From a virus (Duplodnaviria; Heunggongvirae; Uroviricota; Caudoviricetes): 14,446 nt of DNA. Positions 1-14,446 of the stretch are shown piece after piece. The position numbers and the translations under genes are program-made. The stretch is taken from IMG/VR virus record IMGVR_UViG_3300013942_000056, positions 1 through 14,446 of that record; one strand, given 5' to 3'. Position 1 is the stretch's first letter. Every line of letters begins with the position of its first letter. The notes beneath the pieces were generated by a model. That model ran no database searches. It saw only the letters and a program-made list of their open reading frames with translations, and was not told where the DNA came from.

Positions 1-706
1 CATCTCGGGAGATATCCCACTGTTGCAGGCCGGATTCAAACCATTCCTGCATTTTGTTCGCCACCTGCTCCTGCAACGCGCCGCTGCGGGTCCATGCCTG
101 CAACATTTCGCTGAAAGAAGGCAGATCAAAGAAGAAGTGTTCGGAATCACGCATTACCGGGGTAGCGCCAGAAACCACCGATTTCGGCTCGATCAATTCA
201 GTCGGGCTATATGTTGCGCCGCAGACTTCACAGTTATCGCCGTATTGATCTGGCGCTTTACATTTCGGGCAGGTGCCTTTTACAAAACGATCCGGCAGGA
301 ACATGCCTTTTTCCGGGTCGTACAACTGAGAGATAGTGCGGTTTTTAATAAAACCGTTCTCTTTCAGGCGAGTATAGATAAGCTCAGACAACTGACGGTT
401 CTCTTCGCTGTGCGTCGAGTGATAGTTGTCATAGCTGATGTTAAAGCCTGCGAAATCAGTCTGGTGTTCCTGACTCATTTCGCCAATCATCTGCTCCGGT
501 GTGATACCAAGCTGCTGTGCTTTCAGCATGATCGGCGTACCGTGGGCATCGTCGGCACAGATGAAATTAACCTCGTGGCCGCGCATTCGCTGGTAACGAA
601 CCCAGACATCAGCCTGGATGTGCTCCAGCATATGGCCGAGGTGGATTGAGCCGTTAGCGTACGGCAGCGCGCACGTCACCAGAATTTTCTTCGCGACTTG
701 GGTCAT
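1..706 (-). CDS. metG: Methionyl-tRNA synthetase, N-terminal part (3' end lies beyond window start)
   Basis: Reverse complement from 706 reads ATG ACC CAA GTC GCG AAG AAA ATT CTG GTG ACG TGC GCG CTG CCG TAC GCT AAC GGC TCA ATC CAC CTC GGC CAT = [25 protein letters not shown], the known MetRS N-terminus with the class I HIGH-type motif. The plus-strand ORFs 23..649 and 54..248 are antisense shadows of this gene. Confidence 0.95.
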
Positions 707-863
707 AGTAGGCATTACTTCTTTGTAGTGAAAAGGGGCTTGATAGTAACAAAATGGCCTTATGTCTGCCATGTGATAACAGCATTTCTCATAAATGATT
801 AAATGTCGTAGCTGGAGTACACTACAAGGCGACAATTGCGCAAATTAAAATAAAGGAGACGGG

Positions 864-1964
864 ATGAGCGAGTCCAAATCGCCGGATGCCCTGAGAGCAA
901 TGGTAGCCGGTACGCTGGCTAATTTTCAGCACCCAACCCTGAAACACAACCTGACTACGCTTAAAGCGTTACACCATGTTGCGTTGATGGATGACACACT
1001 GCATGTCGAACTAATCATGCCTTTCGTGTGGAATAAGCCTTTTGAAGACCTGAAAGAGCAATGTAGTGGTGATCTGCTCCGTATCACTGGAGCAAAGGCT
1101 ATTGACTGGAAGCTGTCGTACAACATTGCCACGCTTAAGCGCGTCAAAAACCAACCAGGCATTAATGGCGTTAAGAACATTATCGCCGTCAGCTCAGGCA
1201 AGGGCGGCGTGGGTAAATCCTCCACGGCGGTAAACCTGGCACTGGCGTTGGCTGCTGAAGGTGCGAAAGTTGGTATTTTGGATGCCGATATCTATGGTCC
1301 ATCAATTCCAAACATGCTGGGCGCGGAAAACCAACGTCCAACCTCACCTGACGGTACTCACATGGCACCTATCATGTCTCATGGCCTGGCAACCAACTCT
1401 ATTGGTTATCTGGTCACCGACGACAATGCAATGGTGTGGCGTGGACCGATGGCCAGCAAGGCGCTGATGCAGATGTTGCAGGAAACTCTATGGCCTGATC
1501 TGGACTATCTCGTTCTCGATATGCCGCCGGGCACTGGTGATATTCAGTTGACGCTGGCGCAGAACATTCCTGTAACTGGTGCGGTTGTGGTAACTACGCC
1601 GCAAGACATCGCGCTGATCGATGCGAAGAAAGGCATTGTGATGTTCGAAAAAGTCGAAGTGCCGGTACTGGGTATCGTCGAAAACATGAGTGTGCATATT
1701 TGCAGTAACTGCGGTCATCACGAGCCAATTTTTGGCACCGGTGGCGCACAGAAACTGGCCGAGAAATACAACACGCAGTTGTTAGGCCAAATGCCACTTC
1801 ATATCTCTCTTCGTGAAGATCTGGATAACGGAACACCAACCGTTATTAGTCGTCCAGATAGCGAATTTACGGCTATTTATCGTGACCTCGCAGATCGCGT
1901 TGCTGCCCAAATGTATTGGCAAGGTGAAGTAATACCTGGCGAAATCGCATTCCGCGCAGTGTGA
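864..1964 (+). CDS. apbC: Iron-sulfur cluster carrier ATPase Mrp/ApbC
   Basis: 366-aa ORF with AGGAG 7 nt upstream of ATG; Walker A GKGGVGKS; Mrp/NBP35-type CxxC (CSNCGHH); near-identity over long stretches to E. coli Mrp as recalled; divergent from metG as in E. coli. Confidence 0.93.
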   Translation: MSESKSPDALRAMVAGTLANFQHPTLKHNLTTLKALHHVALMDDTLHVELIMPFVWNKPFEDLKEQCSGDLLRITGAKAIDWKLSYNIATLKRVKNQPGINGVKNIIAVSSGKGGVGKSSTAVNLALALAAEGAKVGILDADIYGPSIPNMLGAENQRPTSPDGTHMAPIMSHGLATNSIGYLVTDDNAMVWRGPMASKALMQMLQETLWPDLDYLVLDMPPGTGDIQLTLAQNIPVTGAVVVTTPQDIALIDAKKGIVMFEKVEVPVLGIVENMSVHICSNCGHHEPIFGTGGAQKLAEKYNTQLLGQMPLHISLREDLDNGTPTVISRPDSEFTAIYRDLADRVAAQMYWQGEVIPGEIAFRAV

Positions 1965-1965
1965 T

Positions 1966-1989
1966 AAAAAGGCGGTGCATTGCACCGCC
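1966..1989. terminator. Bidirectional intrinsic terminator hairpin between mrp and the UmuD'-like gene
   Basis: AAAAA then GGCGGTGC (1971-1978), loop ATT, GCACCGCC (1982-1989); on the minus strand the hairpin is followed by TTTTTAT, so it is the better terminator for the minus-strand gene ending at 2002. Confidence 0.7.
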
Positions 1990-2001
1990 TAATCAGTTCT
2001 C

Positions 2002-2391
2002 CTACATCACGGGACAATCATCAAACTCGCCACTTCTTGCGTCGTTGATAATGTGAGTGATCACACCAAACACGGCATTGCTGCCCGTGCATCCATCGTC
2101 ATCCTTTGGCAATGCTTCCTTCTTACCGGTTCTTAAATCCTCCAGATGCTGACGTGGATACTTCCGGTATCTTTTTACGCGATATTCCCCATCCAGAGCG
2201 CATACAAGCAGAGAACCATCAACCGGGGTAAGTGAGGAATCGACCACCAGCAATGCACCCTGTAATATTCCCTCACGATGATGACTATCAGCTGCCCTCA
2301 TGAAGTAGGTCGCTGAAGGATGTCTAATTATCTGCTGATCAAGAGAAATACGGCTCTCAGCATAATCCGCCGCAGGAGAAGGGAAGCCCAT
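2002..2391 (-). CDS. UmuD'-like (HumD-type) S24 LexA-family peptidase lacking the N-terminal cleavable arm
   Basis: 129 aa beginning MGFPSPAADY, matching UmuD from its Cys24-Gly25 cleavage region onward (UmuD has GFPSPAADY); conserved Ser (AADSHHREG) and Lys (EYRVKRY) catalytic dyad positions; perfect SOS box directly upstream. Confidence 0.8.
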   Translation of the reverse strand: MGFPSPAADYAESRISLDQQIIRHPSATYFMRAADSHHREGILQGALLVVDSSLTPVDGSLLVCALDGEYRVKRYRKYPRQHLEDLRTGKKEALPKDDDGCTGSNAVFGVITHIINDARSGEFDDCPVM

Positions 2392-2407
2392 AATACTCGC
2401 CTCTTAA

Positions 2408-9221: not shown

Positions 9222-10907
9222 TCATTTAACGCGTTTGAAAACGTATACGCTGACTGTGATCCCTGTGTCTTCAAACTCGTTGGTAAACGACTTCCCTCTG
9301 GCATAAACGTAATTATCCATCGTCATCCAGTCCAGTATTGGCGCAGTGCCCGGCAATACTGCTACAAGACGCCCGCCGACTTTCAGATGCCCCAGCGCAG
9401 CCAGCGTGTGCTCTCTATGACGACCAAGCGAGTACGGCGGGTTCATAACGATTTTGTCGAACTGATAACCTACGTTGTCCTCAGACCACTTTATGAAGTC
9501 GCAGCAAATCGTGTTCGTATACCCTTTTCCGCGCAGGATATCAGCGAAGAGAGGTGCGATTTCTATGCAGGTAACATCTTCCAGATCGGCGTTGATATAG
9601 GCCAGAAGATCCCCACGTCCGGCTTGAGGCTCCAGCAGCTTCTCACCAGACTTCAATTCAGTGGCTCTGGCAACGTACTCAGCAATCAAGCGTGGGGTAG
9701 GGTAGAACTGGTGTGATTTTGTATCCGGTATTAATCCGGTAGCCACAATCGTATTTAGCGTATGGCCGATCTCATACGGGAACTGCCAGTGCTTTTTCTC
9801 CTGCACGCCGCCAATGAAGCTCAGTGTGCGCTCAAGCTCTTCCACCTGCGACTTCTGGAGAGCTGAATCAGAGAAGTACCATACGCCTTTGTCTTTGCTT
9901 AATCGCCCGTCACGAAGCGCAGTGCGAACCGGCACGGAGATCGTCTTCTGGATTAACCCGAACTGCTTTGGTGCCCGTGTTTTTGGCGCGGTGCGACATG
10001 GCGCGGGGATTGCAGCAGGCATACTGTAAGCCAGCACCTCATTCAACTTCCAGGCCACGTCAGGATGTATTTCAAAGTGAACGTTGCCGTTCTTGAACAT
10101 CTTCACGCGCATTAGATTTCCATCGACGTTCATCCAGTCACCGGTCTGGCAGTCGTTTGCCCGATACGCAGCTGATAGCACCTCAGCAGTGCGGTTGATG
10201 GTAATAAATTCTTTGTGCGCGAAGAAATGAAGCAAGACACGCAGATCGTCGATATAGTCCTCTTTGCGATAGTTCACACTAACGCTGTCCCGCCAGAAAT
10301 CAGAAATGCAGTCAGCGATTATCAGACGTTCGCTGAAACCGTTTGTCTTATTTGTCTTGTGCGCAGGACTCAGCGCCTTAAACAAGCCATACACGCGCTC
10401 AGAGAGATATTTGTGCCTGTCATTCAGCAAATTAAGCATCGTGGGTATGACCGTTTCTGCTTTGAACTCCGGTACACCAACGAACTCTTTAACCTTCATC
10501 TGGTAGCCGGTTCTGTCAGTTTTGATGACTTCCTGTTTGCCCTCTATAAACTGCTCGCGCCACTCATCTCGACGGGAAGCTGGCATGATCAGCAAAACGT
10601 TAGTCATGTCCGTGACCTTCCTCCAGTACTCGGCCCAAATATTCTGTTTCACCCATTCCAGATCGACTTTATCCAACCAACCTCGATTTAAACGCGAGCG
10701 ATCTTCATCTGGTCGATGGTTTAGTCTCAGCAGGCGATTAATCATGTTGTGGCGTTCGTCGCCATAAACGAAGTCGTGTACCTGATACATGAAGGCGATC
10801 TCTTTCTCGCACTCGGCCACAATTTCGTGGATGACGTTCATTTCCTGCCGATAGTCGATAGCAGTGTTTGAGTTGGCATCGTCGATGATGGAAAGGGCTG
10901 TATTCAT
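9222..10907 (-). CDS. 561-aa protein: unknown ~400-aa N-terminal domain fused to a C-terminal gamma-type amino-methyltransferase domain (NPPY; probable N6-adenine DNA MTase)
   Basis: C-terminal region has the SAM-binding motif LEPQAGRGDLL followed about 50 aa later by KIVMNPPY, the order found in gamma-class N6-adenine MTases and HsdM; FYPTP precedes it. NPPY is also used by HemK/PrmC protein-glutamine MTases, so the target is inferred. Confidence 0.7.
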   Translation of the reverse strand: MNTALSIIDDANSNTAIDYRQEMNVIHEIVAECEKEIAFMYQVHDFVYGDERHNMINRLLRLNHRPDEDRSRLNRGWLDKVDLEWVKQNIWAEYWRKVTDMTNVLLIMPASRRDEWREQFIEGKQEVIKTDRTGYQMKVKEFVGVPEFKAETVIPTMLNLLNDRHKYLSERVYGLFKALSPAHKTNKTNGFSERLIIADCISDFWRDSVSVNYRKEDYIDDLRVLLHFFAHKEFITINRTAEVLSAAYRANDCQTGDWMNVDGNLMRVKMFKNGNVHFEIHPDVAWKLNEVLAYSMPAAIPAPCRTAPKTRAPKQFGLIQKTISVPVRTALRDGRLSKDKGVWYFSDSALQKSQVEELERTLSFIGGVQEKKHWQFPYEIGHTLNTIVATGLIPDTKSHQFYPTPRLIAEYVARATELKSGEKLLEPQAGRGDLLAYINADLEDVTCIEIAPLFADILRGKGYTNTICCDFIKWSEDNVGYQFDKIVMNPPYSLGRHREHTLAALGHLKVGGRLVAVLPGTAPILDWMTMDNYVYARGKSFTNEFEDTGITVSVYVFKRVK

Positions 10908-10947
10908 AATTGCACCATTAAGAAGTGATTTGTTTAATGGTGCAATT
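10908..10947 (-). promoter_or_regulatory. Perfect 14-bp inverted repeat over the MTase translation initiation region
   Basis: AATTGCACCATTAA (10908-10921), 12-nt spacer, TTAATGGTGCAATT (10934-10947); the left arm directly abuts the ATG at 10907, so the RBS lies inside the stem or operator. Confidence 0.55.
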
Positions 10948-11010
10948 ATTTCAAAAATGAAAAGGTACTAAATAGAAATAAACAGGCAATCCTTCAAATA
11001 AAGGCATTGG

Positions 11011-11625
11011 CTAATCATACTTGGAGGTATTTATCACCAGAATTTTGTTTGTATAAATCTTCTTAATATCCCATGTGACATTACCGGAATACCATTGACC
11101 GTTATATACTTGGTTTCCAGTTGCACCTGTCATTGTTACATAGACAGGTCTGTCGTAATCGGTTCGTCTATAGTTATATACCCCAACCATAGCAGGCATT
11201 ACCGCACATGGATACCCCATATCTATTGTAAATTGAGGGTCAGAAATAGTGATAAGTTTCGCATCAAGGGGCATCATCTCACCGTGATACACCATTGCGC
11301 CTGCGCTGTTATACATGGCAATGCCATAGCCAGAATGTGATAACACCATATCAGAAAAAGCATAAACTGTTATTGTTCCGGGGCTACCATTTACCTGATG
11401 CAATCTGAGAGCATTGTATCCGTTACTATGCTCATGAATAAACATCATGTTCGCCTTATTACTGCTTTTTATGAAGAAAAAGCATGATTTGTTTGATGGG
11501 ATTGATGTTTGAAAAACAGAACCTTTAGATGTAGACATTGTCCCTTTATTAATCAGATTTTGCGGAGTAAATTCTGGACTCATCCACAAACTTCCATCTG
11601 ATTGAGTAATTGACATCCCGAACAT
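11011..11625 (-). CDS. Hypothetical Tyr/Asn/Gly/Thr-rich protein (204 aa), AT-rich moron
   Basis: The ORF-track start at 11682 is TTG; the ATG at 11625 has GGGGA 6 nt upstream and lies 2 nt after the stop of the upstream 93-aa ORF; the region is visibly AT-rich relative to the flanks. Confidence 0.45.
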   Translation of the reverse strand: MFGMSITQSDGSLWMSPEFTPQNLINKGTMSTSKGSVFQTSIPSNKSCFFFIKSSNKANMMFIHEHSNGYNALRLHQVNGSPGTITVYAFSDMVLSHSGYGIAMYNSAGAMVYHGEMMPLDAKLITISDPQFTIDMGYPCAVMPAMVGVYNYRRTDYDRPVYVTMTGATGNQVYNGQWYSGNVTWDIKKIYTNKILVINTSKYD

Positions 11626-11627
11626 AA

Positions 11628-11909
11628 TTATCCCCAGTATGTGTATATGTAAGAACCAAGCCCCGTATATAAATTTGACCAACTAACCGTATTTCCATTA
11701 ATAGTAACTGTTGGAACAGGTAAATTAATGTAGTTGTCGTTGTTAAGAGGCATCAATGACCACACGGCATGTAGCGATTTACCCGGTGGCGGATTGGAGT
11801 ACGTCTTAGAGCCTGATGACGCAGTAAATCGATCAAGAAAAAAAATAGGAGTAAGGAAGCCAGTAACGTTAATTCCTTTATTGTTGTAAATCCCTGTACC
11901 GTATGCCAT
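11628..11909 (-). CDS. Hypothetical Tyr/Asn/Gly-rich protein (93 aa), AT-rich moron; possibly the N-terminal part of a frameshifted gene
   Basis: ATG at 11909 with AAGGA upstream; composition similar to the following ORF, which is in a different frame. Confidence 0.4.
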   Translation of the reverse strand: MAYGTGIYNNKGINVTGFLTPIFFLDRFTASSGSKTYSNPPPGKSLHAVWSLMPLNNDNYINLPVPTVTINGNTVSWSNLYTGLGSYIYTYWG

Positions 11910-11936
11910 TTTTCATCCTTGTTTTTTATCAACACA

Positions 11937-11960
11937 ATATGGCCGATCATGCGGCCATAT
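11937..11960 (-). terminator. Hairpin (8-bp stem) after the 189-aa gene; possible attenuator or operator
   Basis: ATATGGCC (11937-11944), loop GATCATGC, GGCCATAT (11953-11960), 4 nt after the stop codon at 11965-11967; the downstream flank is not T-rich. Confidence 0.35.
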
Positions 11961-12649: not shown

Positions 12650-12671
12650 ACAAGGGCCATTTGGCCCTTGT
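12650..12671 (-). terminator. Intrinsic terminator after the TerB / small membrane protein pair
   Basis: ACAAGGGCC (12650-12658), loop ATTT, GGCCCTTGT (12663-12671); 2 nt after the stop at 12674-12676; minus-strand downstream flank GTTTCGTTG. Confidence 0.55.
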
Positions 12672-12673
12672 CA

Positions 12674-12832
12674 TTAACACGTTGCTTTACGGACTAGCGG
12701 ATAAGCGAAGTAGATCGCCAGACCAATGAGGACGCCATCAGAAATGACAGACATCATCTTTCCCGTAAAATCCACCAACACCGCCATCACCAGAAGAGCA
12801 ATGACGGTCACAAGCCGGAATCTCTCAAGCAT
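12674..12832 (-). CDS. 52-aa two-helix membrane peptide translationally coupled to the TerB-like gene
   Basis: Minus-strand translation from the ATG at 12832 gives MLERFRLVTVIALLVMAVLVDFTGKMMSVISDGVLIGLAIYFAYPLVRKATC; the ATG overlaps the TerB-like stop (TAATG); two hydrophobic segments; terminator immediately downstream. Absent from the ORF track (below size cutoff). Confidence 0.5.
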   Translation of the reverse strand: MLERFRLVTVIALLVMAVLVDFTGKMMSVISDGVLIGLAIYFAYPLVRKATC

Positions 12833-13257
12833 TAGAGATAAGCATCCAGTGACAACTGAAGCGCCTGTGCGATCTTTTTCAGGGCCAGCTCTTCTTGTTC
12901 GCCAATACCGTCTTGGTCGGCAATATCAAGGCACAGACACAGTACATCTACTGCATCATTAGTCCCGGCCACATCAGCCAGCTCACGTAAAGCCTGGGCA
13001 TTAGCGCGGCGCGGTGAGGCTTCGTATTGAGCACGGATATTGGCGCTCATTTGGGCAATCTCACCAGCAAACGGAGAAAACGCAGGCAGAGCTGCAATTG
13101 TTTTCTCAAGAATGGAAATTTCCTTTGCGTCGCATGTGCCATCGGCATAGGAGATCATGTACGCGCCCCACACGGTGGCTTCAACCGCATCTCGGTTCTC
13201 CATTTTTTTGACCTCGATAACAGCTTTACGAGTTTTCTTTTTGAATAAACCTAACAT
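12832..13257 (-). CDS. TerB-like (tellurite-resistance TerB family) protein (141 aa)
   Basis: Two repeats of the TerB-like pattern: AYMISYADGTCDAKEISILEKTIAAL and LCLCLDIADQDGIGEQEELALKKIAQAL (compare TerB IAVASDGVSSEEK and IAVAKSDGNFDDDEKSAVREIALAL as recalled); AAGGAAAG RBS; leader motif upstream. Confidence 0.6.
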   Translation of the reverse strand: MLGLFKKKTRKAVIEVKKMENRDAVEATVWGAYMISYADGTCDAKEISILEKTIAALPAFSPFAGEIAQMSANIRAQYEASPRRANAQALRELADVAGTNDAVDVLCLCLDIADQDGIGEQEELALKKIAQALQLSLDAYL

Positions 13258-13350: not shown

Positions 13351-13548
13351 TCAGAAATAACCAAGTACCGAACCGACTGGAAAAACAAAAATCCCAACAA
13401 CACGAGCCAAGGTCATACCAGCCTGAAACTGGAGATCACCAGAGCAAACGAGTTTTACAATGTTCGATACCCAACCGGCGGCCATGAGAGCTATGAAAGC
13501 CAGAATCGCCAGCCAAGTTTTTCCAAAGTGATTTGAAAACCAGTTCAT
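13351..13548 (-). CDS. Small membrane protein (65 aa, two hydrophobic segments)
   Basis: ATG at 13548 forms an ATGA overlap with the stop of the upstream signal-peptide gene; hydrophobic stretches WLAILAFIALMAAGWV and VVGIFVFPVGSVLGYF. Confidence 0.55.
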   Translation of the reverse strand: MNWFSNHFGKTWLAILAFIALMAAGWVSNIVKLVCSGDLQFQAGMTLARVVGIFVFPVGSVLGYF

Positions 13549-13796
13549 ACAACCGCCTTAGTCACAGCATGATCCTGAGTAACTGGATGAACTTGAGGTA
13601 TCGCATCCACCGTCATCCCATCCAGAGTGACAGGACGCTCTACTGGAGTGGTGGTAATTGTCGTCGACGGAGGTGTGGTGATGGATGAACCCGGCATCAA
13701 AAGGCTCTGGCCGGCTGGAACGGCTACCGTCGCCAGTGAAACTATAATGAGAACGTAGGCCATTGGTTTCAGCCTCTTTCTTTGAAAATTTTCCAT
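13545..13796 (-). CDS. Small Pro/Thr-rich protein with N-terminal signal-peptide-like or membrane-anchor segment (83 aa)
   Basis: MENFQRKRLKP (basic n-region) + MAYVLIIVSLATVAVPAG (hydrophobic core) + Pro/Thr-rich tail; AGGA 8 nt upstream of ATG; lies entirely inside the alternative frame of ORF 13558..14052. Confidence 0.5.
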   Translation of the reverse strand: MENFQRKRLKPMAYVLIIVSLATVAVPAGQSLLMPGSSITTPPSTTITTTPVERPVTLDGMTVDAIPQVHPVTQDHAVTKAVV

Positions 13797-14052
13797 TCGA
13801 ACTGTCCTTGTTGTTTTTCTCCTTCACTAAAGGCCGTGTACTTTTCGCTTCGCGTGAAGAACCAGAGGTAACAATCGCCCCCACGTTCGCAACAACTGAC
13901 GCTTGCTTATCTAAACGTTCATTCAGCAACCGAACGGCAGTCTCTAGTTCATCAAGACGTGACAGAACACGACCGCTAAATAATTCGGCCAAAATTTGAC
14001 GTAGTGAACGAGGACGTTTAGTTGCAGAAGTGAAATAGGTTTGACGTGCCAT
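13558..14052 (-). CDS. Hypothetical basic protein (start MARQTYF); true 3' end uncertain
   Basis: ATG at 14052 (the ORF-track start at 14100 is GTG inside the poly-C/G junction). First ~75 aa look protein-like (RVLSRLDELETAVRLLNERLDKQ); the remainder is Ser-rich low complexity and overlaps gene 13545..13796 in another frame. Confidence 0.35.
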   Translation of the reverse strand: MARQTYFTSATKRPRSLRQILAELFSGRVLSRLDELETAVRLLNERLDKQASVVANVGAIVTSGSSREAKSTRPLVKEKNNKDSSNGKFSKKEAETNGLRSHYSFTGDGSRSSRPEPFDAGFIHHHTSVDDNYHHSSRASCHSGWDDGGCDTSSSSSYSGSCCD

Positions 14053-14099
14053 GTGGACTCCATCCAGTGTCAGAAAGAGTTGCCCCCCGTGGCATTCCA

Positions 14100-14160
14100 C
14101 ACGCCCCCCCGGCCCCCCCCTCCCCGTTGAGGAGGGCCCAGTGGAGGGGAGCCGCCCCCC
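14100..14160. other. Poly-C/G low-complexity junction (probable chimeric assembly or sequencing artifact)
   Basis: CCCCCCC, CCCCCCCC and CCCCCC runs within 60 bp, coinciding with the end of the fmt homology and a clear rise in GC content to the right. Confidence 0.6.
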
Positions 14161-14446
14161 GGTATTTGGGCAGCAGGGACGAATGAACGTTGATGGAGCC
14201 GTAAGGTGGGGTGTTCAGAATGTCCTCCGGCAGGATGCGGCCATAGGCCGCCACCACGATCAGCTCCGGATGCAGCTCCCGCACCAGGGCCAGGGCCGTG
14301 CCGTCCCGCATTTTCGTGGGCTGATACACGGACAGCCCCTGGGCCAGGGCGTATTCCTTCACCGGTGAAAAGGCCAGCTTATGCCCCCGGTTTTTGGGGC
14401 GGTCCGGCTGGGTGAACACGCCGCAGATCTCGTGCCCGTCCTCCAC
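14120..14446 (-). CDS. fmt: Methionyl-tRNA formyltransferase fragment (residues ~25-135 only), GC-rich, non-enterobacterial codon usage
   Basis: Minus-strand translation [24 protein letters not shown] ... VVAAYGRILPEDIL ... INVHSSLLPKYRGAAPLHWALLNGE aligns with the Fmt N-terminal domain (E. coli [45 protein letters not shown]). Homology stops at the poly-G tract; the N-terminus lies beyond the window end. Confidence 0.75.

What the first reader, a model, noticed from the sequence alone, without database searches (positions are those of the whole stretch)
13545..14052. Signal-peptide gene embedded out of frame within a longer ORF (overlapping genes or frameshift)
The ORF starting at 14052 runs 165 codons without a stop, but only its first ~75 residues look protein-like; the rest is Ser-rich and exactly overlaps, in another frame, a well-formed gene (13545..13796) that has an RBS, a signal-peptide-like N-terminus and an ATGA coupling to the downstream membrane protein. 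This is either a fully embedded alternate-frame gene, an arrangement reminiscent of phage spanin genes though without a lipobox Cys, or a decayed upstream gene.
Basis: seen in the sequence. Interest (0 to 1): 0.4.

Follow-up and report, generated by a model that had tools for sequence, protein, structure and literature searches.

The report
Conserved overlapping gene pair, phage-plasmid
One stretch of DNA in a widespread SSU5-type phage-plasmid of gut bacteria encodes two proteins in two reading frames, one of them an exported small protein that standard annotation misses; it is a real, conserved overlapping gene pair, not a sequencing or decay artefact and not the phage's lysis (spanin) genes.

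Summary
On the minus strand, a 164-codon ORF (A, 14052..13558) contains a +1-frame ORF of 83 codons (A', 13796..13545). The stop codon of A' overlaps the start of a 65-aa two-TM gene (B) as ATGA.

The locus belongs to SSU5-like phage-plasmids (about 680 plasmids). I compared 47 distinct sequence versions plus two remote relatives. Both frames stay open in all but two singleton versions, which carry 1-nt indels.

A' is clearly a gene:
- Codon periodicity switches to its frame.
- Its dN/dS is 0.33-0.36 over the N-terminus and signal peptide.
- Its start codon and Shine-Dalgarno-like motif are conserved.

The A tail is predicted to be disordered, and its composition is largely a by-product of the Thr-rich A'. 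Even so, its frame is actively kept open. By chance this would happen with probability 0.03-0.14 per lineage. No stop-creating T occurs at 49 risk codons. A'-synonymous sites evolve about 2-3 times slower there than flanking synonymous sites.

It is not a spanin pair. A has no TMD and A' has no lipobox. The element has its own endolysin/Rz/Rz1 cassette elsewhere. A local stop-loss or decay is refuted.

The biological role is unknown. The pair sits in an early operon, downstream of RNase H and usually upstream of TerB. Interest is moderate.

The parts
13558..14052 (-). Gene A: 164-aa ORF (PGAP WP_021533181.1, phrog_10411). It has a basic N-terminus, one long helix (residues 17-67), and a predicted disordered Ser/Gly/Asp/His/Cys-rich tail ending in CCD.
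   Evidence: The non-overlapped part has dN/dS 0.33 with normal f0 periodicity.
13797..14052 (-). The part of A read in one frame only (codons 1-85).
   Evidence: Fitch steps per site at codon positions 1/2/3 are 1.50/1.12/2.71. dS is 0.89.
13545..13796 (-). Gene A': 83-aa ORF in the +1 frame (phrog_15659; not annotated by PGAP or GenBank). It has a Sec-type signal peptide or signal anchor, a Thr/Pro-rich segment, and a conserved T-L-D-G-M-x-x-D-x-I-P motif.
   Evidence: Selection in this frame.
13558..13796 (-). Dual-coding segment of 239 nt, read in both frames.
13805..13809 (-). Shine-Dalgarno-like AAGGA, 8 nt upstream of the A' start. A purine-rich equivalent is present in all lineages.
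13614..13625 (-). The 12-nt block CTGGATGGGATG (A' L-D-G-M; A G-W-D). It varies at only one base, in one of seven clades whose synonymous sites are otherwise near saturation.
13545..13548 (-). ATGA: the A' stop overlaps the B start (GTGA in the Klebsiella clade). The stop of A (13558-13560) lies 10 nt upstream, in the same frame as B.
13351..13548 (-). Gene B: 65-aa protein with two TMDs (phrog_6006), dN/dS 0.29. It is lost or truncated in some lineages. Stand-alone relatives occur in Vibrio and Aeromonas phages.
12832..13257 (-). TerB/TciA-like gene. It is the usual downstream neighbour, including in the remote relatives.
12674..12832 (-). DUF3927 / TciB-like small membrane protein gene, followed by a terminator-like hairpin at 12671..12650.

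Best explanation
This is a genuine, family-wide pair of same-strand overlapping genes in SSU5-type phage-plasmids.

**What is made.** One mRNA segment yields two proteins.
- Ribosomes that start at ATG 14052 make A. A is a cytoplasmic protein with a long N-terminal helix and a disordered tail. They read through to TAA 13558.
- Other ribosomes start independently at an internal Shine-Dalgarno site and ATG 13796 in the +1 frame. They make A', a small protein with a Sec-type signal peptide or signal anchor and a Thr/Pro-rich exported part.
- Termination of A' at ATGA hands ribosomes to gene B, which encodes a small two-TM membrane protein.

**How constraint is shared.**
- In the first half of the overlap (the A' N-terminus and hydrophobic segment), A' carries almost all of the constraint, and A is only a tolerant linker.
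- In the second half, both frames are moderately constrained.

**Shown here.**
- Both ORFs are conserved.
- A' is under selection.
- Stops in the A frame are selected against.
- The signals for independent initiation are conserved.
- The pair is not the phage's spanin.

**Inferred.**
- Both products are actually translated.
- A' is exported.
- A' is translationally coupled to B.
- The pair belongs to an early, membrane-directed accessory operon (RNase H - A/A' - B - TerB/TciA - TciB-like), perhaps for exclusion or envelope protection.
For: **Distribution**
- The locus is 100% identical to E. coli plasmids of about 110 kb, and homologous to about 680 SSU5-like plasmids and to phages SSU5, Cyrano and PhiR41_1.
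- Both frames are open in 45 of 47 unique versions from 7 clades. The other two, L040 and L066, carry a 1-nt indel.
- Both frames are also open in two remote syntenic relatives, L070 and L074.

**A' is coding**
- Substitution steps per site follow the periodicity of A in the non-overlapped part: positions 1/2/3 = 1.50/1.12/2.71.
- Over A' codons 1-35 they switch to the A' frame: A' positions 1/2/3 = 0.97/0.60/2.11.
- An OLGenie-type estimate gives A' dN/dS of 0.59 (CI 0.44-0.79) for the whole overlap.
- For the first half it gives 0.33-0.36, under two different alignments.
- The start codon is ATG in 45 of 45 versions and GTG in L070.
- A Shine-Dalgarno-like motif lies 6-9 nt upstream in every lineage.
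- PHROGs already holds a family for A', phrog_15659.

**The A frame is maintained**
- Given the A' protein and random synonymous codons, the A frame stays open with probability only 0.03-0.14 per lineage. Between-clade dS is about 1-2, so the lineages are close to independent. The product over eight near-independent lineages is about 3e-10.
- At 49 A' codons where a third-position T would create a stop in A, T occurs 0 times. At other codons it occurs 178 of 473 times (Fisher 4e-10).
- A'-synonymous sites evolve at d = 0.36 in the second half and about 0.6 in the first. Flanking dS is 0.89 (A N-terminus) and 1.17 (B).
- At invariant A' residues, 4-fold sites show 1.0 steps, against 3.67 outside the overlap (p = 0.003).
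- In the 12-nt block CTGGATGGGATG, 11 bases are invariant across all seven clades and one varies in a single clade.
Against: - There is no expression evidence for either product: no Ribo-seq, proteomics or fusions.
- The direct test for amino-acid-level selection on the A tail is not significant. dNN/dSN is 1.0 for the whole overlap and 0.69-0.70 (CI 0.39-1.21) for the second half.
- AlphaFold predicts the tail (residues 68-164) to be disordered.
- The His/Asn/Asp/Tyr-rich composition of the tail follows automatically from the Thr-rich A'. ACC is not enriched among the A' Thr codons.
- The Trp and first Cys of the tail motif are not kept in the remote relative L070.
- In the Thr/Pro-rich middle the alignment is uncertain.
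- A weak consensus hairpin (z = -3) around the invariant block cannot be excluded as a contributor to nucleotide conservation.
- The function of every member (A, A', B) is unknown.
Confidence: 0.8

Rival explanations
1. Only A' (and B) are functional in the overlap. The tail of A is translated read-through with no function of its own. Its frame is kept open because translation through the region matters in itself: for example to modulate access to the internal A' start site, to deliver ribosomes close to B, or to prevent Rho-dependent polarity on the downstream genes.
For: - dNN/dSN for the A tail is about 1 overall and is not significant in the second half.
- The tail is predicted to be disordered.
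- Its composition is a by-product of the A' sequence.
- Its motif residues are lost in L070.
- The stop of A lies 10 nt upstream of B's start and in frame with it.
Against: - The A frame stays open to the same position in lineages that have lost B: the L008 clade, L070 and L074.
- The rate at A'-synonymous sites is cut 2-3 fold, which is more than stop avoidance alone requires.
- C141, G144, W145 and G149 of A are invariant across seven clades, through constraints on A'-synonymous positions.
Confidence: 0.3
2. The pair is a two-component spanin (Rz/Rz1-like): an outer inner-membrane protein and an embedded outer-membrane lipoprotein that act in lysis.
For: - The gene architecture resembles lambda Rz/Rz1: a small gene in the +1 frame, almost wholly inside a longer one.
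- The inner product has a signal sequence and is Pro/Thr-rich.
- The outer product has a long helix.
- The downstream 65-aa protein gives a sub-threshold Pfam holin hit (E 0.036).
Against: - A has no TMD (maximum hydropathy 0.65).
- None of the 49 A' versions has a lipobox.
- The PHROG families hit are of unknown function, not spanin families.
- The locus lies among early and nucleotide-metabolism genes.
- The same element has a canonical lysis cassette elsewhere: a TM protein, an endolysin (phrog_873), an Rz-like i-spanin (phrog_1026), and an overlapping ORF with an ISGC lipobox.
Confidence: 0.02
3. Decay or stop-loss, or a sequencing frameshift: an originally short upstream gene lost its stop in this sequence, so the long ORF is an accident here.
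For: - The tail looks un-protein-like.
- Many single database entries carry 1-nt indels in homopolymer runs (T4 and A5) that swap the frames.
Against: - The 164-codon ORF, and the position of its stop, are conserved across seven clades with near-saturated synonymous divergence and in two remote relatives.
- No homologue has a stop in the A frame upstream of or inside A'.
- The window sequence is 100% identical to many complete plasmids.
Confidence: 0.02
4. Programmed +1 ribosomal frameshifting joins the N-terminal part of A to the A' frame, so the real product is an A-A' fusion and not two proteins.
For: - The A' frame is open for some distance upstream of its ATG in several lineages, and entirely open in the Cronobacter clade.
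- Fusion ORFs created by indels exist in databases.
Against: - No conserved slippery or stall site was found.
- The A' frame has stops 9-10 codons upstream of its ATG in the window.
- The start codon (ATG or GTG) and the Shine-Dalgarno-like motif are conserved in all lineages.
- The conserved N-terminus of A' is a typical signal-peptide n-region, which only makes sense at a free N-terminus.
Confidence: 0.03

Closest known systems
Lambda Rz/Rz1 (embedded two-component spanin genes)
   Same: - A small gene in the +1 frame lies almost entirely inside a longer gene on the same strand of a tailed-phage genome.
- The inner product has an N-terminal export signal and a Pro/Thr-rich mature part.
- The outer product is helical.
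   Different: - The outer protein has no N-terminal TMD.
- The inner protein has no lipobox Cys in any of the 49 versions.
- The pair is not in the lysis cassette.
- The element has its own Rz-like/Rz1-like pair next to its endolysin.
- There is no sequence or PHROG relationship to spanins.
PhiX174-type overprinted genes (for example lysis gene E inside D, +1 frame)
   Same: A membrane-targeted small protein is encoded in the +1 frame inside the gene for a soluble protein. Constraint is partitioned between the frames along the overlap.
   Different: - This is a dsDNA element of about 108 kb, with no obvious pressure for genome compression.
- The sequences are unrelated.
- The function here is unknown.
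- What I state about phiX174 rests on general knowledge and was not tested here.
P1 tciA-tciB-tciC / TerB-associated accessory operons
   Same: The downstream neighbours are a TerB-family protein (phrog_632, tellurite resistance) and a TciB-like DUF3927 membrane protein (phrog_1470). The order RNase H - A/A' - TerB is kept even in the remote relatives.
   Different: - A, A' and B have no detectable homology to Ter or Tci proteins.
- In SSU5 and in the Enterobacter plasmids, an antirepressor/Rha gene replaces TerB downstream of A/A'/B. The link is therefore one of position, not obligation.
PHROG families phrog_10411 (A), phrog_15659 (A') and phrog_6006 (B)
   Same: The window proteins match these families over their full length (E 2e-76, 1e-48 and 3e-27).
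   Different: All three families are of unknown function. The phrog_15659 profile starts at the second Met (M12). That residue is not conserved across lineages, whereas M1 is.

Membership tests
Two-component spanin (Rz/Rz1 type) | The i-spanin is a type II inner-membrane protein with an N-terminal TMD. | tested here: not met
   The maximum Kyte-Doolittle 19-residue window for A is 0.65. The AF2 helix at residues 17-67 is not hydrophobic.
Two-component spanin (Rz/Rz1 type) | The o-spanin is a lipoprotein with a lipobox and an acylated Cys. | tested here: not met
   The pattern [LVI][ASTVI][GAS]C is absent from all 49 A' versions. The window's A' has no Cys at all.
Two-component spanin (Rz/Rz1 type) | Location in the lysis cassette, with holin and endolysin. 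| tested here: not met
   The locus lies between rnhA and TerB in the early module. The endolysin, Rz-like and Rz1-like genes are at 17950-19368 of NZ_CP126951.1.
Same-strand overlapping (dual-coding) gene pair | Both ORFs are intact across diverged homologues. | tested here: met
   45 of 47 unique versions, plus L070 and L074. The two exceptions are singleton 1-nt indels.
Same-strand overlapping (dual-coding) gene pair | Purifying selection attributable to the embedded frame. | tested here: met
   The periodicity switches to the embedded frame, and dNN/dNS is 0.59 (CI 0.44-0.79) for the whole overlap and 0.33-0.36 for the first half.
Same-strand overlapping (dual-coding) gene pair | Selection attributable to the outer frame within the overlap. 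| tested here: inconclusive
   For: stop avoidance (0 of 49 against 178 of 473; per-lineage P(open) 0.03-0.14) and a 2-3 fold lower A'-synonymous rate. Not significant: dNN/dSN of 0.69-0.70, CI 0.39-1.21.
Same-strand overlapping (dual-coding) gene pair | Both products are translated. | not testable with these tools
   This needs Ribo-seq, initiation-site profiling, mass spectrometry or reporter fusions.
Programmed ribosomal frameshift gene | A conserved slippery or stall site, and no independent start in the second frame. | tested here: not met
   ATG or GTG plus a Shine-Dalgarno-like motif is conserved in all lineages. The T4 run at which database indels occur is not conserved across clades.
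Sec-exported small protein (A') | A positively charged n-region, a hydrophobic h-region and small residues at the cleavage site. | tested here: met
   The N-terminus reads n-region KRKRLK, h-region MAYVLIIVSLATVAV, c-region PAGQ-S/A, conserved in pattern across clades. I inspected the cleavage site by eye only, and actual export or cleavage was not testable.

The most novel reading that the evidence does not exclude
A, A' and B may form a previously unrecognised phage-plasmid envelope module. A would be a cytoplasmic coiled-coil protein with a Cys/His/Asp-rich, possibly metal-binding, tail. A' would be an exported Thr/Pro-rich peptide encoded inside that tail. The overlap would lock their co-inheritance and expression ratio. 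With B and the neighbouring TerB/TciB-like genes, the module would mediate superinfection exclusion, colicin or tellurite tolerance, or control of cell division during plasmid-state lysogeny.
Probability: 0.15. Interest if true: 0.6.

Novelty: new member of a known kind. Interest (0 to 1): 0.45.

Why it matters
- SSU5-type phage-plasmids are common in clinical E. coli, Klebsiella, Enterobacter and Salmonella, with about 680 records in PLSDB. They can carry resistance genes.
- RefSeq/PGAP and the phage GenBank records I inspected annotate only the long ORF. A conserved exported protein is therefore missing from the records I inspected.
- Well-supported same-strand dual-coding genes in large dsDNA phages, other than spanins, are few. 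This one shows a clear partition of constraint: the embedded frame dominates the first half, and the two frames share the second.
- Natural diversity spanning saturated synonymous distances makes it a good test case for overlapping-gene selection methods and for gene finders.
- It also offers clean genetic handles. Single-base changes exist that are silent in one frame and knock out the other.

Tried and rejected
- **Spanin hypothesis.** Rejected: no TMD, no lipobox, wrong location, and a real lysis cassette elsewhere.
- **Local stop-loss, decay or sequencing error.** Rejected by the comparative data.
- **Programmed frameshift.** Rejected: there is an independent conserved start, and no conserved slippery site.
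- **Known RNA family in the region.** Nothing credible in Rfam. RNAalifold gives only a weak short hairpin in a nearly invariant block, so covariation could not be assessed.
- **His-richness of the A tail as evidence of selection on A.** Rejected. ACC is not enriched among the A' Thr codons (25% against 29% background), so the composition follows from the Thr-rich A'.
- **Search for ancestral, non-overlapping versions.**
  - I tried a word-indexed search with A and with A', a HMMER profile search of 1.84 billion representatives, and tblastn of plasmids.
  - These found only SSU5-family loci and two remote syntenic relatives, all with the overlap.
  - Which frame is older therefore remains open.
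- **Pfam hits.**
  - Nothing above threshold for A, A' or B.
  - The holin hit of B is sub-threshold.
  - B's relatives in Vibrio and Aeromonas phages are unannotated TM proteins in moron-like positions, which gives no functional lead.
- **AlphaFold of A.** Only one confident helix, so a fold search was not worthwhile.
- **Literature.** Searches found nothing on this pair.
- **Tool failures.**
  - The genome-contig scan with alignment A1 failed for lack of a conserved stretch.
  - The first run of the ORF-openness simulation hit the time limit and printed nothing. I re-ran it.
Full report
**1. What is there**

All relevant genes lie on the minus strand.
- ORF A runs from ATG 14052 to TAA 13558 and encodes 164 aa. 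A GGAG ribosome-binding site sits 5 nt upstream.
- ORF A' runs from ATG 13796 to TGA 13545 and encodes 83 aa. It is in the +1 frame relative to A. An AAGGA motif lies 8 nt upstream of its start.
- 239 of the 252 nt of A' lie inside A.
- The A' stop overlaps the ATG of a 65-aa gene, B (13548..13351), as ATGA. A's own stop lies 10 nt upstream of that ATG, in frame with B.
- Downstream come a TerB-family gene (13257..12832) and a DUF3927 gene (12832..12674).

Hydropathy:
- A has no hydrophobic segment (maximum 0.65).
- A' has a typical n-h-c signal-peptide layout (maximum 2.03).
- B has two TMDs.

**2. Where it comes from**

- The segment 14083..12800 is 100% identical to E. coli plasmids of about 110 kb.
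- It has homologues in about 680 PLSDB plasmids from Klebsiella, Escherichia, Enterobacter, Salmonella, Citrobacter and Cronobacter. It also matches phages SSU5, Cyrano and PhiR41_1. These are the SSU5-type phage-plasmids.
- The mrp, metG and umuD-like genes at the left end of the window belong to the element too.
- The last 363 bases of the window (14084-14446) are foreign. They have 63% GC, encode a fragment of a formyltransferase, and are joined through a G-rich tract. This is probably an assembly chimera. It does not affect the finding.
- PGAP and the GenBank phage records annotate A and B but not A'.
- PHROGs has families for all three, each of unknown function.

**3. Comparative test**

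I collected 11 annotated loci and 56 IMG/VR loci. They gave 47 distinct nucleotide versions in seven clades. Synonymous divergence between clades is about 1-2, which is near saturation.

ORF integrity:
- Both ORFs are intact in 45 of the 47 versions. The other two, L040 and L066, are singletons with a 1-nt indel that swaps the C-termini.
- A HMMER profile search of 1.84 billion representative proteins found only 22 hits.
- Two of these are remote relatives, P0051 and P0058. Their loci show the same order, RNase H - A - TerB.
- Both remote relatives keep the embedded ORF and the open A frame. One starts A' with MENFQQK. The other starts it with GTG, followed by EKYQRKRLQP.
- No homologue has a stop in A before or inside A'.

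**4. Which frame is selected?**

Parsimony steps per site:

| Region | Frame-A position 1 | Frame-A position 2 | Frame-A position 3 |
|---|---|---|---|
| Non-overlapped part of A | 1.50 | 1.12 | 2.71 |
| Overlap, A' codons 1-35 | 2.11 | 0.97 | 0.60 |
| Overlap, remainder | 1.86 | 1.97 | 1.71 |

- The non-overlapped part shows ordinary coding in frame A.
- Over A' codons 1-35 the pattern is ordinary coding in the A' frame: A' positions 1/2/3 = 0.97/0.60/2.11.
- The remainder of the overlap shows no periodicity.

An OLGenie-type estimator, run on two alignments (one guided by the A protein, one by the A' protein), gives:

| Region | A' dN/dS | A tail dN/dS |
|---|---|---|
| Whole overlap | 0.59 (CI 0.44-0.79), 0.52 | 1.0 |
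| First half | 0.33, 0.36 | about 1.9 |
| Second half | 0.95, 0.72 | 0.69, 0.70 (CI 0.39-1.21) |

Where two values are shown, the first comes from the A-guided alignment and the second from the A'-guided alignment.

A' is therefore unquestionably under purifying selection. Direct amino-acid-level selection on the A tail is not demonstrated.

**5. Is the A frame merely open by chance?**

No.
- I re-coded each lineage's A' protein with random synonymous codons drawn from the element's own codon usage. The A frame stayed open in only 3-14% of trials per lineage. Over eight near-independent lineages the product is about 3e-10.
- At 49 A' codons where a third-position T would create a stop in A, T never occurs. 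Elsewhere in A' it is the commonest third base, at 178 of 473 (Fisher 4e-10). That p-value treats related sequences as independent.
- Sites that are synonymous in A' evolve at d of about 0.6 in the first half and 0.36 in the second. Flanking dS is 0.89 (CI 0.72-1.10) in the A N-terminus and 1.17 (CI 0.96-1.44) in B.
- At invariant A' residues, 4-fold sites show 1.0 steps, against 3.67 outside the overlap (p = 0.003).
- In the 12-nt block CTGGATGGGATG (L-D-G-M in A', G-W-D in A), 11 bases are invariant in all seven clades and one varies in a single clade (GGG>GGA in L007).

Against a sequence-specific role for the tail:
- AlphaFold sees only one helix, at residues 17-67, and disorder after it.
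- The His/Asn/Asp/Tyr richness of the tail follows automatically from Thr codons in A'. ACC is not enriched.
- The Trp and the first Cys are not kept in the remote relative L070.

**6. Mechanism**

- Independent initiation of A' is supported by an ATG in 45 of 45 versions, a GTG in L070, and a purine-rich Shine-Dalgarno-like motif 6-9 nt upstream in all lineages.
- The conserved N-terminus of A' is a signal-peptide n-region.
- A programmed frameshift is unlikely. No conserved slippery site exists, and the window has A'-frame stops just upstream of the ATG.
- The many frame-swapped proteins in databases arise from 1-nt indels in T4 or A5 runs. They look like assembly errors or sporadic mutants.
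- The ATGA (or GTGA) junction suggests that A' is translationally coupled to B. However, B is truncated or absent in some lineages that keep A/A', so A/A' is the conserved core.

**7. Not a spanin**

- The same plasmid, NZ_CP126951.1, has a canonical lysis cassette at 17950-19368. It comprises a TM protein, an endolysin (phrog_873), an Rz-like i-spanin with an N-terminal TMD (phrog_1026), and an overlapping unannotated ORF with an ISGC lipobox.
- A lacks a TMD, and no A' version has a lipobox.
- The A/A' locus lies in the early module, with ribonucleotide reductase, thyA, dfrA, dnaQ-like, dam and rnhA.

**8. Function**

The function is unknown.
- Pfam gives nothing above threshold.
- The C-terminal half of B has stand-alone relatives in Vibrio and Aeromonas phages. 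They sit in moron-like positions and are annotated only as TM-helix proteins.
- The recurrent neighbourhood is TerB (phrog_632) plus a TciB-like DUF3927 protein (phrog_1470, described as inhibition of cell division or resistance to colicin). Together with the membrane and export features, this makes an envelope-directed accessory role the most reasonable guess. That is inference from context only.

**9. Verdict**

This is a conserved same-strand overlapping gene pair, and a new example of a known kind of arrangement.
- The embedded gene is missing from the annotation records I inspected.
- Confidence that A' is a real gene is about 0.9. Confidence that the tail of A has a function beyond being translated is about 0.5-0.6.
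- No literature on this pair was found.

Noticed in passing
window 14084-14446: The last 363 bases have 63% GC and encode a fragment of a methionyl-tRNA formyltransferase-like protein (Pfam Formyl_trans_N, E 2e-26). They are joined to the phage-plasmid sequence through a G-rich tract (GGGGAGGGGGGGGCCGGGGGGG). All plasmid matches stop at 14083, where real plasmids carry rnhA upstream. This is probably an assembly chimera.
   Followed up: partly
L069 (NZ_CP126951.1) 17950-19368, minus strand: This is the element's canonical lysis cassette. It holds a 107-aa TM protein (phrog_5093), a 230-aa endolysin (phrog_873), and an 83-aa Rz-like i-spanin (phrog_1026). PGAP calls all three 'hypothetical'. 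A 71-aa ORF (18165..17950) with the lipobox ISGC overlaps the end of the i-spanin gene and is not annotated; it is likely the o-spanin.
   Followed up: partly
window 1-2400: The mrp (ApbC-like) gene, a methionyl-tRNA synthetase gene fragment and a umuD-like gene look chromosomal. They are in fact part of the phage-plasmid, in the same order as in phage PhiR41_1.
   Followed up: partly
window 13690-13700 (T4 run) and 13815-13819 (A5 run); proteins P0012, P0013, P0015, P0018, P0022, P0047, P0049, P0052; loci L040 and L066: Many database entries carry 1-nt indels that fuse the N-terminal part of A to the C-terminal part of A'. Several are at the same T4 run. One such variant, P0015, is seen on 5 contigs. 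They may be homopolymer sequencing errors or real mutants in which A' is truncated after its hydrophobic segment.
   Followed up: partly
L055 and protein P0008: These are mosaic versions of gene A. The N-terminal half comes from the L010-type clade and the C-terminal half from the window-type clade. Recombination breakpoints therefore fall inside the gene.
   Followed up: no
window 13351-13548; loci L076 and L077: The window's B protein has a 3-residue insertion (65 aa against 62 aa) relative to most relatives. The conserved C-terminal half of B (GW..N..KL...GDL....G.T.ARVVG.F..P.G..LG) also occurs in stand-alone small TM proteins of Vibrio and Aeromonas phages.
   Followed up: partly
window 10800-11950: This is a low-GC stretch (37-41%) within the element. 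It holds two ORFs, 11011..11682 and 11628..11909, both on the minus strand and annotated only as hypothetical in relatives. It may be a recently acquired insert.
   Followed up: no
L003 group (Klebsiella) and L008 group (Salmonella pSTM_Phi): Gene B is truncated to 35-45 codons by a rearrangement in the L003 group and absent in the L008 group. The TerB/DUF3927 pair is replaced by other genes in several clades; in SSU5 and the Enterobacter plasmids it is replaced by an antirepressor/Rha gene. A/A' is retained in all of them.
   Followed up: partly
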